Shown: positions 32,048-35,633, numbered from the stretch's first letter. The stretch is DNA of 64,000 nt from Naegleria gruberi (GCA_000004985.1 GG738908.1), one strand, 5' to 3'. The notes: a model not told the origin generated them from the sequence alone. Made by a program: numbers and translations.

Positions 32048-35000
32048 TTATTCCTTAAATTCTTCCACAATCTTTGAAGCCACATCCATTTCCATAAGAG
32101 GGTGTTCAAACACGTAGAAGAAACGAGGGAGTTCAAAAGCTGCCTCCGCTTCCTCTTTGATTTCCATCAGATAATTCACACATTGTTCCATTTTACCTTC
32201 GAATAATAGAGTTTGTACTCCTTTCTTCATATTTACAAGTTCTGTACGTTTGTTTACCAAGGATTGCAACTTGGACCAAGATCTCCAAAATTTGGCCTTT
32301 TCCAATAATGTGAATAAATTCCAAATAATAAAGATACCATCTTGGAAGGCAAATTCAAGTAAATTACTAGAAACATATTTCACCAATTCATCCAATCGTC
32401 CTAAACCCAAATCCTTAAAGAAAACTAGTTTGATAAAGAGGTTTGAACATTATAGTAGAAAAAAACTTACATTCTTGAATAAGGTCATAATATAAAGTAC
32501 TCTTGACAAGGTCAATGAGACGATATTCCTCTCTTTGGTCCTCATGATATCTGAATGTCCAATTTTCAGCGTATGCTATTGCTGAATCACTATCTTGACT
32601 TGCCTTCAGGACATCTAACTTTTTCTGTACAGACAATCCACAAAGTATGGCATAGAGTACGCAGAAAAATTTTGAATTCGTGTAAAATGTGACAGTTTTG
32701 TGGAGGTAGATTTTCTCATCATCCAAGCATCCAAAGTTTGGAAGAATAAAGAATCTATCTATGACTTTCAGAGGAGAAAGCGTTTGGTAATTGGCTTCTC
32801 CTAGTTTGGTTTTAGTAAGGCTCTTTTTTTGTCTATTGAAAAATGTATTATTGAGACGGAACATCTTACTTGGGAATTGATCTTTCATCTTGACAATATA
32901 ATCATTGCATTTTCTAATGAAGGTGTCTTCTGAAGGAGTAGTAAAAACTGACATTCCTGATAAATAATCCTCTTCAATATCAATTGGTTTTACACATGTG
33001 AAGAGATAGTCAATCAGAACTTCAGTTTCAGGTCCATTCAAAATTAAAAATGCAGAATTTGGATTACTCAAATGCTTCATAATATCGTCGTAGTCTATGA
33101 ATTTAAACAATTCTTGGCAAACCTTCTTCTGGTCTCTTTCGTAATCAGTGTTTGCAGCATCATTAATGCTCTTGCTAATGTCTTCCTCTTGAGAAACCAA
33201 GACAAACTCATCCTCTATAACTGTGTGAGACATTACCATTTGTGAAAAGCTTTCTCGAGATGTTGCTTCAGCAATAAGGGGGAATAGTATCAATTTACCT
33301 GAAAAATCTGGTAACCATCTATAGGAAAGTTTCACTTTGGCTTGATTAAAACTGAAACCATTCTCCTTGTTGATATCCCAATAATTGCATCTGAGTCCAA
33401 GTCCATCCATAATATTTTGATATCTCAAGAATTCCTTATGCGACATTTGTGGATGAATGACAAAGAGTAAATCAAACTCTGAAGCTTTTTCTGAAATAAT
33501 GTAGTGAGGTATGATTTGAATATTCATCTTTCTGGAATGTGTTAGGAGATATTCTTGTCCATATTTCAGGTAGATTTCCAATTTCCAACACTTGTCAACA
33601 AAGAATGAAGCGTCTCTGGAGACCGAAATATCAAAAGTAATGGTTTGCGATTCTCCAACATCCAATTCAACCTCCTTCTCCAAGGCTCCATCGTGAAGTG
33701 TCAGCTTACAGTTAGTATCTTCGTAACCTGTTGTTCGACTGCATATTAAATCCTTATCATCCATTACTATTTTAACTTTAGCTAGTCTGTTCTTACTTGC
33801 TTTAAATGGTAGGTTTGTAGTATTGACCAAATCAAAACTGCATGTATGCTTCTCAGTTCTTCCCATTGTTTGTGGTGAATTAAAAGAGGAAACATTAATA
33901 GGGAGCAAACATTCTACACATTTCTCTAATCGAGCACCATTTTCAAATTCCTTTCCTAATATAGAGACATTGGAAGCTATTTTCATTATTGGTTCAGATT
34001 CAATCTTGAAATAAAATTTTTCATCGATGATAATAGATTCTCCTGGTTTGATGGCAGGTAAAGGTAGTTCATGACTGGAAACACCTGGGAATTTGAGGAT
34101 GGCTTTCAAATTTGGAAGCATTAGAGAACCATTGTTTTCTATTACAATGTTGGTAATGTAGCATTCCTCACCTGGAGACAAAACTCCATCATCAAACACT
34201 GGAACAATTTGAAAATCTTTCACAATTACATTATACAGTGAATTAGAATATTCAACAATTTCACCATTCTCATTAGTTACAATAAATAAAAATTTTCCAC
34301 ATTCATCCATTTCTCCAGGACTGGATGGATGAGGAGCTGTTCCATCAGCACCATTTTCACCATGTTTTCCATTCTCGGCGTGGGAAATCTCATTACAGCC
34401 AGCATCTCCACCAAAACCACCAATTCCTGGTCTACCATTAAATCCAGCATCACCTGGTTTCCCACAGCTTGAAAATGCTTTGAAAAAGACAAAGAGTTCC
34501 TAATATTGGTTAACGAGAAAAGAATATTTTTCTACATACACTGTGTTCAGACTCGATTACTATATTTCCACCCTTTCCAGAAGAGCCACCTTTTCCACTA
34601 CAAGTATTAATATCAATTGACAATTTCATTTTGAACTTACCCCTTTCCTGATTTAGCTCCATTTCCTCCGTTTCCTCCATTACCACCTTTACCAAAACTA
34701 CTGTTGGCTCCTGATCCTCCATTGCCTCCATTACCTCCATGTCCACCTAATTGAATTAGGAAATTAATATATTTACAATACTAACCATTTCCACCTCTTC
34801 CACCTATATAATATATATTAGTCAACTGTGTTAATTTACAATATCTCATAAAAATTACATACCATTTCCACCTCTAGCATCAACAATAAATAAATTATTC
34901 TCGTTAATTTCAAAATTAGCTTCAAAAGATCCATTCAAAGAAATCATGTTATCCTTAGAGAGTAATTTTAAATAAATATCTTGAGCATCTTCTCCATGAG

Positions 35001-35633
35001 ATCCATCACCACCAAGTTGACCTTTTGTGCCATCTTCTCCATCACATCCATTCAATCTTCTTCTATCAATCATTTCTCTTTCCACTTCATCTTTAAATTC
35101 AGCAATTATACCTGTTTTCCCACTAAATTCCACATTAAAATTTCTCCTTTAATTATTAACACTTACTTGCTTCCGAATCTTCCATCTTTTCCACTTTTAC
35201 CATTTGTTCCAATATTTCCTTTCTTCCCTCTACTCGAAAAGTGATAGAATTTAGTCAATCCAAATGATCGTGACTCAAAACTATGGAACGATAATTCACT
35301 ATTTTCTATCTGTCTTTCCAAATGATTTTTAATTTGATACCTTTTCCATAATTCTTGCAGTGATTGTTGACATTGTTCAAAGCCAATTCCCTCACAATTT
35401 TCCAACGTCTTGATTAGTTTATCTGGTATCACACATTCTCTATTAATTTTAATATGATTAATACTGTTATTATTTACATCCACAACTTGTGATGCTGACA
35501 ACTGATTATTCTCTTGATTATCATGCTGAATATTATTTTCATTATTTTGTGATGAAGATGATGATGTAGATTGTTGAAGCAAATCATCATTGTTTGGAGG
35601 AGTTGACGATGAAGCCTCCAAAGCCGTGATCAT
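32048..35633 (-). CDS. Multi-exon gene (7 exons, ~1096 aa): S/N/Q-rich N-terminus, collagen-like Gly-X-Y / GGNGG repeats, and a large uncharacterised C-terminal domain
   Basis: Minus-strand exons are 35167..35633, 34863..35122, 34786..34803, 34641..34746, 34542..34597, 32471..34477 and 32048..32424. Introns are 44, 59, 39, 43, 64 and 46 nt. Their donors are GTAAGT, GTATGT, GTTAGT, GTAAGT, GTGTAT and GTAAGT, and every acceptor is YAG. Each splice restores the frame. The encoded repeats include ...ARGGNG-GGRGGNG-GHGGNGGNGGSGANSSFGKGGNGGNGGNGAKSGKG-GGKGGSSGKGGN... and GKPGDAGFNGRPGIGGFGGDAG...NGKHGENGADGTAP. The gene joins track ORFs 35163..35633, 34855..35133, 32415..34310 and 32048..32410. Confidence 0.55.

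What the first reader, a model, noticed from the sequence alone, without database searches (positions are those of the whole stretch)
32048..35633. Seven-exon gene encoding a collagen-like / Gly-rich repeat protein with a large unrecognised C-terminal domain
Four separate track ORFs, plus Gly-rich coding segments in other frames, join into one continuous 1096-codon frame. This requires six very short introns of 39-64 nt, each with GT..YAG boundaries, and each splice restores the frame. The product has Gly-X-Y stretches (GKPGDAGFNGRPGIGGFGGDAG, NGKHGENGADG) and GGNGG repeats between an S/N/Q-rich N-terminus and a ~750-aa C-terminal domain I cannot assign. Collagen-like triple-helix segments in a free-living protist are uncommon.
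Basis: partly seen in the sequence, partly recalled or inferred. Interest (0 to 1): 0.7.

Follow-up and report, generated by a model that had tools for sequence, protein, structure and literature searches.

The report
Glycine-scaffold protein gene, not collagen
This is a real seven-exon Naegleria gruberi gene for an intracellular 1104-residue protein of the uncharacterised DUF7932 family, and its glycine-rich stretches most likely form a compact, conserved glycine-packed domain, not a collagen triple helix.

Summary
On the minus strand, 35633..32048, seven exons join through six tiny GT..AG introns into one frame. One correction: intron 5 is 40 nt, not 64 nt, so the product is 1104 aa, not 1096.

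Five of the six intron positions and phases match the independently annotated N. lovaniensis orthologue. The sixth flanks a GGN micro-exon that both genes have.

The collagen reading is not supported:
- G-X-Y runs are only 4-9 triplets long with 1.5% proline.
- There is no Pfam Collagen hit, signal peptide or transmembrane segment.
- AlphaFold2 folds the orthologous Gly region into a compact 250-aa domain (pLDDT 93, pTM 0.81). Its Gly runs are neither helix nor strand.
- Its only structure matches below E=1e-3 are polyproline-II bundle antifreeze proteins, and the fit is local only.

The "unassigned" C-terminus is two Ig-like beta-sandwiches (the first is Pfam DUF7932), an orphan alpha/beta region and a helical tail.

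The architecture recurs in other Heterolobosea, a sponge, a nemertean and predatory bacteria. The Gly module also occurs alone or fused to J, C2, PH, FYVE and WW-like domains. Function is unknown; I favour a rigid binding scaffold. The locus seems absent from the public N. gruberi protein set.

The parts
32048..35633 (-). Whole gene: ATG at 35633, TAA stop at 32050-32048; 7 exons; 1104-aa product.
   Evidence: Spliced translation. Full-length collinear alignment with the N. lovaniensis orthologue.
35167..35633 (-). Exon 1 (residues 1-156, phase 2 end). It holds the S/N/Q-rich N-terminus, a short conserved segment, and the start of the Gly module (GKKGNIGTNGKSGKDGRFGS).
   Evidence: An upstream in-frame stop precedes the ATG, since the ORF frame opens at 35675.
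35123..35166 (-). Intron 1, 44 nt, GTAAGT..TTTAG, phase 2.
   Evidence: Same column and phase as N. lovaniensis intron 1. The same junction 'GRFGS|NGKTG' occurs in L003. Retention gives a stop at the next codon.
34863..35122 (-). Exon 2, carrying the beta-strand elements of the Gly module (..GEDAQDIYLKL.., ..LFIVDARGGNG).
34804..34862 (-). Intron 2, 59 nt, GTATGT..TATAG, phase 1.
   Evidence: It is needed to keep the same number of GGx triplets as the orthologues.
34786..34803 (-). Exon 3, an 18-nt micro-exon encoding GGRGGN.
   Evidence: N. lovaniensis has a 21-nt micro-exon in the same repeat, flanked by phase-1 introns. With it included, the alignment with the orthologues has no gap.
34747..34785 (-). 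Intron 3, 39 nt, GTTAGT..ATTAG, phase 1.
   Evidence: Same column and phase as N. lovaniensis intron 2. The same position is split in L003. Its length is a multiple of 3, but retention gives GGT TAG, an immediate stop.
34641..34746 (-). Exon 4, the GGx repeat core (GGHGGNGGNGGSGA..GKGGNGGNGGNGAKSGK).
34598..34640 (-). Intron 4, 43 nt, GTAAGT..TTGTAG, phase 2.
   Evidence: Same column and phase as N. lovaniensis intron 4.
34540..34597 (-). Exon 5 (GGKGGSSGKGGNIVIESEHS).
34500..34539 (-). Intron 5, 40 nt, GTATGT..ATTAG, phase 0.
   Evidence: Same column and phase as N. lovaniensis intron 5. It keeps the conserved 'ELFVFFKA' element.
32471..34499 (-). Exon 6 (residues 304-980). It holds the end of the Gly module, both beta-sandwiches, the alpha/beta region and the mixed region.
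32425..32470 (-). Intron 6, 46 nt, GTAAGT..AACTAG, phase 1.
   Evidence: Same column and phase as N. lovaniensis intron 8 and the L003 intron at 'IQE|FF'.
32048..32424 (-). Exon 7, with a presumed helical C-terminal tail (residues 981-1104; not covered by either structure model) and the stop codon.
34317..35243 (-). Glycine-rich module (residues 131-364; the span includes introns 1-5). It has seven G-X-Y/GGX runs of 4-9 triplets interleaved with short beta-strands and one helix.
   Evidence: Run statistics. 34 invariant Gly columns across eukaryotic and probable bacterial members. AF2 on the orthologue gives pLDDT 93.4 and pTM 0.81, with the Gly runs at pLDDT 97-99 and no DSSP helix or strand. 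Foldseek best hits are PPII-bundle antifreeze proteins.
33960..34286 (-). Beta-sandwich 1 (residues 375-483), which is Pfam DUF7932 (hit at residues 396-473).
33513..33926 (-). Beta-sandwich 2 (residues 495-632), with the family motif 'N.S..YG'.
32877..33470 (-). Alpha/beta (flavodoxin/Rossmann-like beta-alpha-beta) region, residues 647-844. Conserved motifs are D.L.V, WD, G.S and GK.I.FP. A disordered insert spans residues 719-749.
   Evidence: AF2 secondary structure. Conservation. No Pfam, PDB or PADLOC relative.
32472..32861 (-). Mixed beta-hairpin/helical region, residues 850-979.

Best explanation
The region is one protein-coding gene of Naegleria gruberi on the minus strand. It has seven exons and six spliceosomal introns of 39-59 nt, and encodes a 1104-residue cytosolic protein of the uncharacterised family that Pfam tags only as 'DUF7932'.

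Shown here:
- The gene structure.
- Orthology with N. lovaniensis, N. fowleri and Willaertia genes.
- The conserved order of parts: variable N-terminus, ~235-aa glycine-rich module, two Ig-like beta-sandwiches, alpha/beta region, helical tail.

Inferred from prediction: the glycine-rich part is not a collagen triple helix. It is an autonomous, compact domain in which GxxGxx/GGxGGx runs adopt polyproline-II/polyglycine-II-type extended helices. These pack through their glycines against a small beta-sheet, as in springtail antifreeze proteins, the Obg N-domain and the ALK glycine-rich domain, but with a different topology.

Most likely role (inference, low confidence): the glycine module is a rigid, flat, hydrophilic scaffold that presents surfaces for binding or self-association. 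The sandwiches act as protein-binding spacers. The alpha/beta region is the ligand-binding or catalytic end, because its conserved residues sit at the C-terminal ends of the strands. Relatives fused to PH, FYVE, C2, WW-like, SAM or J domains suggest action at membranes or in assemblies inside the cell. Bacterial relatives carry signal peptides and would work outside the cytoplasm.
For: Gene model:
- canonical splice sites, and each splice restores the frame.
- in-frame stops on retention, and AT-rich introns.
- gap-free alignment across all junctions.
- intron position and phase conserved for 5 of 6 introns, and a micro-exon in both genes.
- a third orthologue with 36-44 nt introns.
- a Percolomonas transcript encodes a complete family member.

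Organism: the adjacent tubulin is 100% identical to N. gruberi XP_002671129.1.

Family:
- DUF7932 scores above the gathering score.
- An exhaustive HMMER search gives 235 cluster representatives at E<=1e-3 and 117 at E<=1e-10.
- DUF7932 is present in 38 of 38 members scanned.
- Named members are Willaertia, N. lovaniensis, the sponge Oopsacas, the nemertean Lineus, Percolomonas, N. gruberi D2V8W8 and a Bdellovibrionaceae MAG. Myxococcota and Planctomycetota loci were also found.

Gly module:
- 34 invariant Gly columns.
- AF2 pLDDT 93.4 and pTM 0.81, with about 75% of residues lacking DSSP helix or strand, yet pLDDT 97-99 in the Gly runs.
- The only Foldseek hits at E<=1e-3 are the nine-PPII-helix antifreeze protein 7jjv. 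Snow-flea AFP comes next.
- The module profile finds at least 984 proteins, many without DUF7932, with J, C2 or WW-like fusions or bacterial signal peptides.

C-terminus:
- AF2 pLDDT 90.0 and pTM 0.82.

Cytosolic location: no signal peptide or transmembrane segment, and PH, FYVE and SAM domains in relatives.
Against: - No transcript data for this locus were available.
- I could not read coordinates or phi/psi angles.
- The Foldseek matches have TM-scores of only 0.1-0.2 and may be driven partly by glycine composition.
- The functional proposal has no direct support. The alpha/beta region has no detectable relative.
- Naegleria orthologues have lost the family's 'T[ND]' motif after the first strand.
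Confidence: 0.72

Rival explanations
1. One reading: the Gly-X-Y stretches form collagen-like triple helices, so this is a protist collagen-like protein with a globular C-terminal head.
For: - G-X-Y periodicity is real: seven runs of 4-9 triplets.
- Pfam Collagen hits 8 of 38 family members, best E 9e-7.
- Short collagen-like trimerisation segments do exist in non-collagen proteins (bioRxiv 10.1101/2023.11.25.568672).
Against: - No Pfam Collagen hit in this protein at E<=1. SclB scores 12 bits against a cut-off of 325.
- Proline is 1.5% of run residues.
- Runs are interrupted by conserved beta-strand elements.
- Many runs are GGx, two-thirds glycine.
- No signal peptide, and relatives carry cytosolic PH, FYVE, C2 and J domains.
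- The AF2 monomer model is compact at pTM 0.81.
Confidence: 0.04
2. The Gly-rich module is a beta-solenoid or beta-roll: each ~21-24-residue Gly run is one coil, possibly calcium-binding through its Asp/Asn residues, as in RTX or TPS/autotransporter beta-helices.
For: - The runs are rich in D and N.
- The module does contain short strands, such as 'NIVIES' and 'LFIVDA'.
Against: - There is no RTX nonapeptide.
- Glycine periodicity is 3, not 9 or 18.
- DSSP finds no strand ladders in the Gly runs although their pLDDT is 97-99. Solenoid coils would normally show ladders.
- Foldseek ranks PPII bundles first.
Confidence: 0.15
3. The Gly-rich region is an intrinsically disordered low-complexity linker, perhaps condensate-forming, and the AlphaFold confidence is an artefact.
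For: - Composition is 27% Gly with N, S and K also abundant.
- Glycine-rich segments are often assumed disordered (bioRxiv 10.1101/2020.07.30.229062, listed).
Against: - 34 single glycine positions and the interleaved hydrophobic strands are invariant or conserved between eukaryotic and probable bacterial members.
- Module length is nearly fixed among the Naegleria orthologues.
- A profile of the module finds at least 984 proteins with E down to 6e-32 despite HMMER's composition correction.
- pLDDT 93.
Confidence: 0.05
4. The ORFs are not one gene. The 631-aa ORF is a stand-alone gene, and the upstream Gly-rich pieces are pseudogenic or separate.
For: - No transcript evidence for this locus.
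- The locus has no counterpart in the public N. gruberi protein set.
- The 631-aa ORF has its own ATG.
Against: - The orthologue and the wider family always carry the Gly module and DUF7932 in one polypeptide. This includes a transcript-derived Percolomonas protein.
- Intron positions and phases are conserved.
- The ATG of the 631-aa ORF lies inside the conserved region, just before the first sandwich.
Confidence: 0.04

Closest known systems
DUF7932 domain-containing proteins (Pfam PF25560), e.g. N. lovaniensis C9374_009181, N. fowleri 'unnamed protein product', Willaertia magna ABK040_014281
   Same: These are orthologues: 54%, 52% and 42% identity. They share the full domain order and intron positions, and the N. 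lovaniensis gene has the beta-tubulin gene nearby (three genes away, orientation differs).
   Different: The window gene has six introns against eight in N. lovaniensis, and its introns are shorter (39-59 nt against 51-92 nt). None of these proteins has any described function or structure. A full-text search for 'DUF7932' found 0 papers.
Glycine-rich polyproline-II helical bundle domains: springtail/snow-flea antifreeze proteins (7jjv, 3bog, 2pne), Obg N-domain, ALK/LTK glycine-rich domain, phage S16 gp38 tip, acetophenone carboxylase
   Same: - GxxGxx and GGxGGx runs with conserved glycines.
- A confidently predicted compact fold that is neither helix nor strand.
- Best Foldseek hits are 7jjv (E 4.5e-5) and then 3bog/2pne.
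- The class is described in bioRxiv 10.1101/2023.11.25.568672.
   Different: - No Pfam GTP1_OBG hit.
- The module is much larger (~235-250 aa) and is interleaved with a beta-sheet and a helix.
- It is cytosolic in eukaryotes and has no known link to ice binding, ribosomes or receptor kinases.
Collagen / bacterial collagen-like proteins (Pfam PF01391; Scl2/SclB NF038329)
   Same: Glycine at every third residue in short runs. Some relatives reach the Pfam Collagen threshold region.
   Different: Runs are at most 9 triplets and almost free of proline. There is no secretion signal and no HMM hit, and the region is predicted as a compact monomer domain.
Ig-like beta-sandwich modules: macroglobulin (MG) domains of alpha-2-macroglobulin/C3/C4/C5, Gram-positive pilin domains, NBR1/ILRUN FW domain, CARDB
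   Different: Sequence identity is 7-15%. Similarity is at the fold level only and carries no implied function. No thioester or isopeptide motifs were examined.

Membership tests
Spliceosomal-intron-containing eukaryotic gene | GT..AG boundaries with consensus donor; each removal restores one long frame. | tested here: met
   Six introns with GT[AT][AT]GT..YAG ends yield a 1104-codon frame.
Spliceosomal-intron-containing eukaryotic gene | Introns are non-coding: stops on retention, composition shift, no conservation compared with exons. | tested here: met
   - In-frame stops occur 1-18 codons after each donor.
- Intron GC is 22% against 35% in exons.
- Exon flanks are 64-76% identical to N. 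lovaniensis; introns are about the same as shuffled sequence.
Spliceosomal-intron-containing eukaryotic gene | Intron positions conserved in orthologues. | tested here: met
   Five of six introns share column and phase with N. lovaniensis introns, and both genes have a micro-exon. L003 shares junctions 1, 3, 5 and 6.
Spliceosomal-intron-containing eukaryotic gene | Spliced mRNA observed. | not testable with these tools
   No RNA-seq or cDNA for N. gruberi is available here. The only indirect evidence is a Percolomonas transcript-derived family member.
Collagen (triple-helix repeat, PF01391) | Long uninterrupted (Gly-X-Y)n and a match to the Collagen HMM. | tested here: not met
   The longest run is 9 triplets. 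There is no PF01391 hit at E<=1. NF038329 scores 12 bits against a cut-off of 325.
Collagen (triple-helix repeat, PF01391) | Pro/Hyp-rich X and Y positions. | tested here: not met
   Proline is 1.5% of run residues. X is mostly K, G or N; Y is mostly N, G or D.
Collagen (triple-helix repeat, PF01391) | Secreted or extracellular (signal peptide). | tested here: not met
   The N-terminus is hydrophilic (mean Kyte-Doolittle value -0.75 over 30 residues). The maximum 19-residue hydropathy is 1.35. This is a heuristic only; no dedicated predictor was available.
Collagen (triple-helix repeat, PF01391) | Trimeric rod. | not testable with these tools
   Only a monomer prediction was possible. It is compact at pTM 0.81, which argues against a rod.
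DUF7932 family (PF25560) | Match to PF25560 above the gathering score. | tested here: met
   31.5 bits against 27, at residues 396-473. The orthologue scores 32.4 bits.
DUF7932 family (PF25560) | Shared full-length architecture with other members. | tested here: met
   Alignments A1, A4 and A6. The profile search mostly matches positions 5-350, with some matches reaching 618.
Glycine-rich PPII/polyglycine-II helical bundle domains | Conserved Gly at every third (or two of three) positions in several adjacent runs. | tested here: met
   Seven runs and 34 invariant Gly columns with period 3.
Glycine-rich PPII/polyglycine-II helical bundle domains | Compact fold whose core segments are extended left-handed helices (phi about -75, psi about +145) without alpha or beta hydrogen-bond patterns. 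| tested here: inconclusive
   AF2 gives pLDDT 97-99 in the Gly runs with no DSSP helix or strand, and pTM 0.81, which is consistent. Coordinates and angles could not be read.
Glycine-rich PPII/polyglycine-II helical bundle domains | Structural similarity to solved PPII bundles. | tested here: inconclusive
   [not shown]
Obg N-terminal glycine-rich domain (PF01018) | Sequence match to GTP1_OBG. | tested here: not met
   [not shown]
RTX beta-roll / beta-helix | GGxGxDxUx nonapeptide repeats, or significant fold match to beta-helices. | tested here: not met
   [not shown]
Anti-phage defence proteins (PADLOC) | Match to any PADLOC model. | tested here: not met
   Six family members were scanned. 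There were no meaningful hits; the single one had E 0.012.

The most novel reading that the evidence does not exclude
The ~235-aa glycine module would be a previously undescribed, widespread class of polyproline-II/polyglycine-II bundle domain with its own topology: at least 984 proteins at E<=1e-5, in amoebae, sponges, nemerteans, rotifers, fungi, Myxococcota, Bdellovibrionota, Bacteroidota and Vibrio. It would be an autonomous, mobile domain working both in the eukaryotic cytosol (fused to PH, FYVE, C2, J and WW-like domains) and outside bacterial cells. In the DUF7932 proteins it is coupled to an orphan alpha/beta domain with no relative in Pfam or among PDB sequences. That would substantially enlarge the handful of natural PPII-bundle folds now known, and give them a first large family that can be studied genetically in Naegleria.
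Probability: 0.5. Interest if true: 0.65.

Novelty: new variant of a known kind. Interest (0 to 1): 0.45.

Why it matters
Three reasons.

1. It removes a false lead. There is no protist collagen here.

2. Natural glycine-rich PPII-helix bundles are known from only a few proteins: antifreeze proteins, Obg, ALK/LTK, phage fibre tips and two carboxylases. They are of interest for protein design (bioRxiv 10.1101/2023.11.25.568672; PMC13243192). A conserved, confidently predicted module found in about a thousand proteins across bacteria and eukaryotes would be the largest such family. It has no Pfam model, no structure and no literature.

3. The locus appears to be missing from the public N. gruberi protein set, perhaps because five tiny introns and an 18-nt micro-exon defeat gene finders. 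If so, the reference annotation may under-call genes of this kind.

Tried and rejected
Alternative splice choices:
- The 64-nt intron 5 (34541..34478) deletes a conserved element, so it was rejected.
- A 70-nt intron 6 (acceptor at 32401) is in frame but would delete 'FFFKDLGL', which is conserved in the orthologues.
- Skipping the 18-nt micro-exon would remove six residues from invariant glycine columns.

Domain searches that found nothing:
- Collagen, C1q or fibrinogen-like domains: Pfam and NCBIfam found none.
- PDB by sequence, for the Gly module plus sandwich, for the C-terminal profile and for the alpha/beta profile. The only alpha/beta hit was Wss1p at E 0.73.
- Pfam at E<=10 on nine alpha/beta regions: only scattered non-repeating noise.
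- PADLOC: nothing.
- Literature search for 'DUF7932': 0 papers.

Fold searches with limited yield:

An idea left untested: by eye, the first beta-alpha-beta of the alpha/beta region resembles the TIR or PIN strand-1 motifs. No tool result supports this, the Naegleria sequences lack the T[ND] motif, and I do not claim it.

The N. lovaniensis orthologue therefore stood in for the Gly module, and the uninterrupted exon 6 for the C-terminus.

Bacterial neighbourhoods gave a conserved partner gene but no functional clue.
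Full report
**1. What is in the sequence**

The window is AT-rich (about 33% GC) and gene-dense. On the minus strand between 35633 and 32048 lie four ORFs of 120-631 aa and several short Gly-rich ORFs in other frames. Starting from the ATG at 35633, I searched at every stop for GT..AG introns that reopen a long frame.

- One chain of canonical introns (GTAAGT, GTATGT or GTTAGT donors; TAG or CAG acceptors) links everything.
- A second version with intron 5 = 34539..34500 (40 nt) gives 1104 codons.

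**2. Which model is right, and is it a gene?**

A search with the C-terminal 740 aa found a 1162-aa N. lovaniensis protein (C9374_009181), an N. fowleri fragment and a metagenomic fragment. The full spliced product aligns with the N. lovaniensis protein end to end at 54% identity, with no gap at any of the six junctions. The segment 'SELFVFFKAFSSCGKPG' pairs with 'SECFILFKALTSCGKPG', which only the 40-nt intron 5 preserves.

I mapped the N. lovaniensis protein back onto its genomic locus exactly: 9 exons, with introns of 51-92 nt. I then compared intron positions on the alignment.

- Window introns 1, 3, 4, 5 and 6 share column and phase with N. lovaniensis introns 1, 2, 4, 5 and 8.
- Both genes have a micro-exon (18 nt here, 21 nt there) inside the GGN repeat, flanked by phase-1 introns.
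- N. lovaniensis has two further introns that the window gene lacks.
- A metagenomic contig (L003) carries a third orthologue with the same exon pieces and introns of 36-44 nt.

Each window intron produces an in-frame stop if retained. The introns are 22% GC against 35% for exons. Exon flanks are 64-76% identical to N. lovaniensis in register, while the introns are no more alike than shuffled sequence.

The concern about minimum intron size is answered by L003. It is also answered by the 30-bp minimum intron that N. fowleri RNA-seq mapping used, based on an assessment of predicted genes (PMC8296547). A transcript-derived protein from the heterolobosean Percolomonas carries the same Gly module plus DUF7932 in one ORF. 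No transcript data exist here for this locus itself.

**3. Organism and annotation status**

- The intron-less ORF 30018-31364 (minus strand) is 100% identical to N. gruberi beta-tubulin XP_002671129.1/D2VXR9 on a 259-kb scaffold. The window is therefore N. gruberi.
- The best match to the gene's C-terminal 740 aa among 5.8 billion clustered proteins is nevertheless only 51-54% identical.
- Neither the 1104-aa model, the 631-aa ORF nor the exon-1 ORF exists as an exact sequence in the 15-billion-protein collection.
- The locus therefore seems to have no model in the public N. gruberi protein set. This needs checking against the GenBank record.

**4. The family**

Pfam finds only DUF7932 (31.5 bits, gathering score 27, residues 396-473), and NCBIfam finds nothing meaningful. 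An exhaustive HMMER search of 1.84 billion representatives with a profile of the post-glycine part found 235 proteins at E<=1e-3 and 117 at E<=1e-10. Most match profile positions 5-350, and some reach the end.

| Source | Members |
|---|---|
| Heterolobosea | Willaertia magna (two paralogues), an N. lovaniensis paralogue, N. gruberi D2V8W8, Percolomonas |
| Animals | Sponge Oopsacas minuta, nemertean Lineus longissimus |
| Bacteria | Bdellovibrionaceae MAG; Polyangiaceae, Polyangium and other Myxococcota; Rubripirellula (Planctomycetota) |

- All members I read carry the same Gly-rich module upstream.
- All 38 members scanned have DUF7932. Eight also touch Pfam Collagen, and single members add FYVE, PH or SAM domains.
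- No paper mentions DUF7932.

**5. The C-terminal part**

AlphaFold2 on the uninterrupted exon-6 translation (model residues 365-979, 79-sequence alignment) gave pLDDT 90.0 and pTM 0.82 (domain map).

| Residues | Predicted structure |
|---|---|
| 375-483 | Beta-sandwich 1 (Pfam DUF7932) |
| 495-632 | Beta-sandwich 2 |
| 647-844 | Beta-alpha-beta (flavodoxin/Rossmann-like) region; disordered insert at 719-749 |
| 850-979 | Hairpin/helix region |
| 981-1104 | Exon 7, presumed helical tail (not covered by either structure model) |

- Relaxed Pfam scans, a PDB profile search and PADLOC give nothing for this region.
- Its most conserved residues (D, WD, G.S, W, GK..P, DSG) sit around the C-terminal strand ends, which is where Rossmann-like folds bind ligands. 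This is an inference only.

**6. The glycine-rich part**

Sequence statistics: seven G-X-Y/GGX runs of 9, 7, 8, 4, 5, 8 and 4 triplets. Glycine is 46% and proline 1.5% of run residues. X and Y are mostly K, N, G and D. By hydropathy there is no signal peptide or transmembrane segment. There is no RTX nonapeptide.

Across ten members from amoebae to probable bacteria, 34 glycine columns are invariant. The hydrophobic elements between runs ('DIYLKL', 'LLLDARGG', 'NIVIES..P.LLMLVE') are conserved.

AlphaFold2 on the N. lovaniensis module (65-sequence alignment) gave pLDDT 93.4 and pTM 0.81. This is a compact domain. Only about 60 of its 252 residues are helix or strand, and the Gly runs are unassigned by DSSP yet have pLDDT 97-99.

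- Foldseek's only hits at E<=1e-3 are the nine-PPII-helix springtail antifreeze protein 7jjv. Snow-flea antifreeze 3bog/2pne comes next. TM-scores are only 0.1-0.2, so the likeness is local, not topological.

Confidently placed Gly runs without alpha or beta hydrogen-bond patterns, strict period-3 glycine conservation and the Foldseek ranking together favour a polyproline-II/polyglycine-II-type bundle. That class is reviewed in bioRxiv 10.1101/2023.11.25.568672 and PMC13243192. I could not read coordinates, so this stays a prediction. I put it at about 0.65, against about 0.15 for a beta-solenoid.

A collagen triple helix is not supported. The full test list is in the membership table.

**7. 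The module is autonomous**

A profile of the module alone finds at least 984 proteins at E<=1e-5. Many have no DUF7932. Examples I read:

- A Vibrio neonatus and a Flavobacteriales protein with signal peptides
- A rotifer protein
- A J-domain fusion
- A C2-domain fusion
- A WW-like fusion

All keep the non-glycine strand motifs.

In two bacterial loci, a conserved ~310-aa ORF overlaps the end of the DUF7932 gene by 4 nt. This ORF has a signal peptide, CxxC pairs and one transmembrane helix (32% identity between the two, E 2e-46).

**8. How it most likely works**

- **Shown:** a single spliced gene, a conserved multi-domain architecture, and no secretion signal.
- **Predicted:** the Gly module is a rigid glycine-packed domain, followed by two Ig-like sandwiches and an alpha/beta domain.
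- **Inferred (low confidence, about 0.3):** the protein is a cytosolic scaffold or sensor. Its glycine domain offers a flat hydrophilic surface for binding or self-association. Its alpha/beta end binds a ligand or is catalytic. Relatives with lipid-binding, SAM, J or WW-like domains point to work at membranes or in assemblies.

**9. Verdict**

- The collagen interpretation is rejected.
- The gene is an N. gruberi member of a catalogued but wholly uncharacterised family.
- The interesting residue is the glycine module: a probable new and very widespread PPII-bundle-type domain.

Interest is moderate (0.45).

Noticed in passing
window 30018-31364 (-): This intron-less beta-tubulin gene is 100% identical to N. 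gruberi XP_002671129.1/D2VXR9, which identifies the window as N. gruberi NEG-M. Its N. lovaniensis counterpart (C9374_009184, 88% identity) lies three genes from the orthologue of the studied gene, so the neighbourhood is partly conserved, though the orientation differs.
   Followed up: partly
window 32048-35633 (-): No N. gruberi protein corresponds to this locus in the searched collections, although neighbouring N. gruberi proteins are present. The gene may be missing from the reference annotation, possibly because of its five tiny introns and 18-nt micro-exon.
   Followed up: partly
window 8254-8327 (-), 25536-25608 (+), 27419-27491 (-), 31872-31944 (+): There are four tRNA genes: Val-AAC, Ala-AGC, Lys-CTT and Ala-AGC. 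The two tRNA-Ala copies differ at 2 of 73 bases. One sits in the ~680-nt gap between the studied gene and the tubulin gene.
   Followed up: partly
L005 11123-12040 and L006 11057-12016: In a Bdellovibrionaceae MAG and a second bacterial contig, a conserved ~305-319-aa ORF overlaps the end of the DUF7932 gene by 4 nt. It has a signal peptide, two CxxC zinc-ribbon-like pairs and one transmembrane helix (32% identity, E 2e-46). This is a candidate two-gene operon of unknown function.
   Followed up: partly
P0175 (L007 7001-8485), P0206 (L008 7001-8509), P0180, P0208, P0168: The glycine module also occurs without DUF7932. In Vibrio neonatus it sits inside a long operon of unknown genes, with an LPP20-like lipoprotein and an ABC-type ATPase. 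In a Flavobacteriales genome it lies next to PKD/SprB/Por_Secre_tail genes. In eukaryotes it is fused to J, C2 or degenerate WW-like domains.
   Followed up: partly
L003 (JGI metagenome 3300002220 contig), 2139-5704: An environmental heterolobosean orthologue has even shorter introns (36-44 nt). The contig has N's and a probable frameshift near 3598-3638, so my model there is imperfect. It shares two intron positions with N. lovaniensis that the N. gruberi gene lacks, implying intron loss in N. gruberi.
   Followed up: partly
L001 (ENA ERZ929261 contig, 2630 nt) = window 29904-32533: A metagenome assembly contig is about 99% identical to this stretch of the window (2603 matches, 16 mismatches, a few indels). 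N. gruberi-like DNA is therefore present in that environmental sample.
   Followed up: yes
window 35779-36027 (+) and 36439-37844 (+): A divergently oriented gene starts only 145 nt upstream of the studied gene's ATG, so they probably share a promoter region. It has a GTAAGT donor after about 50 codons. Further on lie an ankyrin-repeat-looking ORF and a 378-aa ORF. None of these was analysed.
   Followed up: no
animal family members P0022, P0053, P0168 (N-terminal regions): Upstream of the glycine module, these proteins share a motif resembling a degenerate WW domain: 'GLPDGMQEVFDP..R.I.LDHN..T...D.R'. I saw this by eye only, and Pfam did not call it.
   Followed up: no
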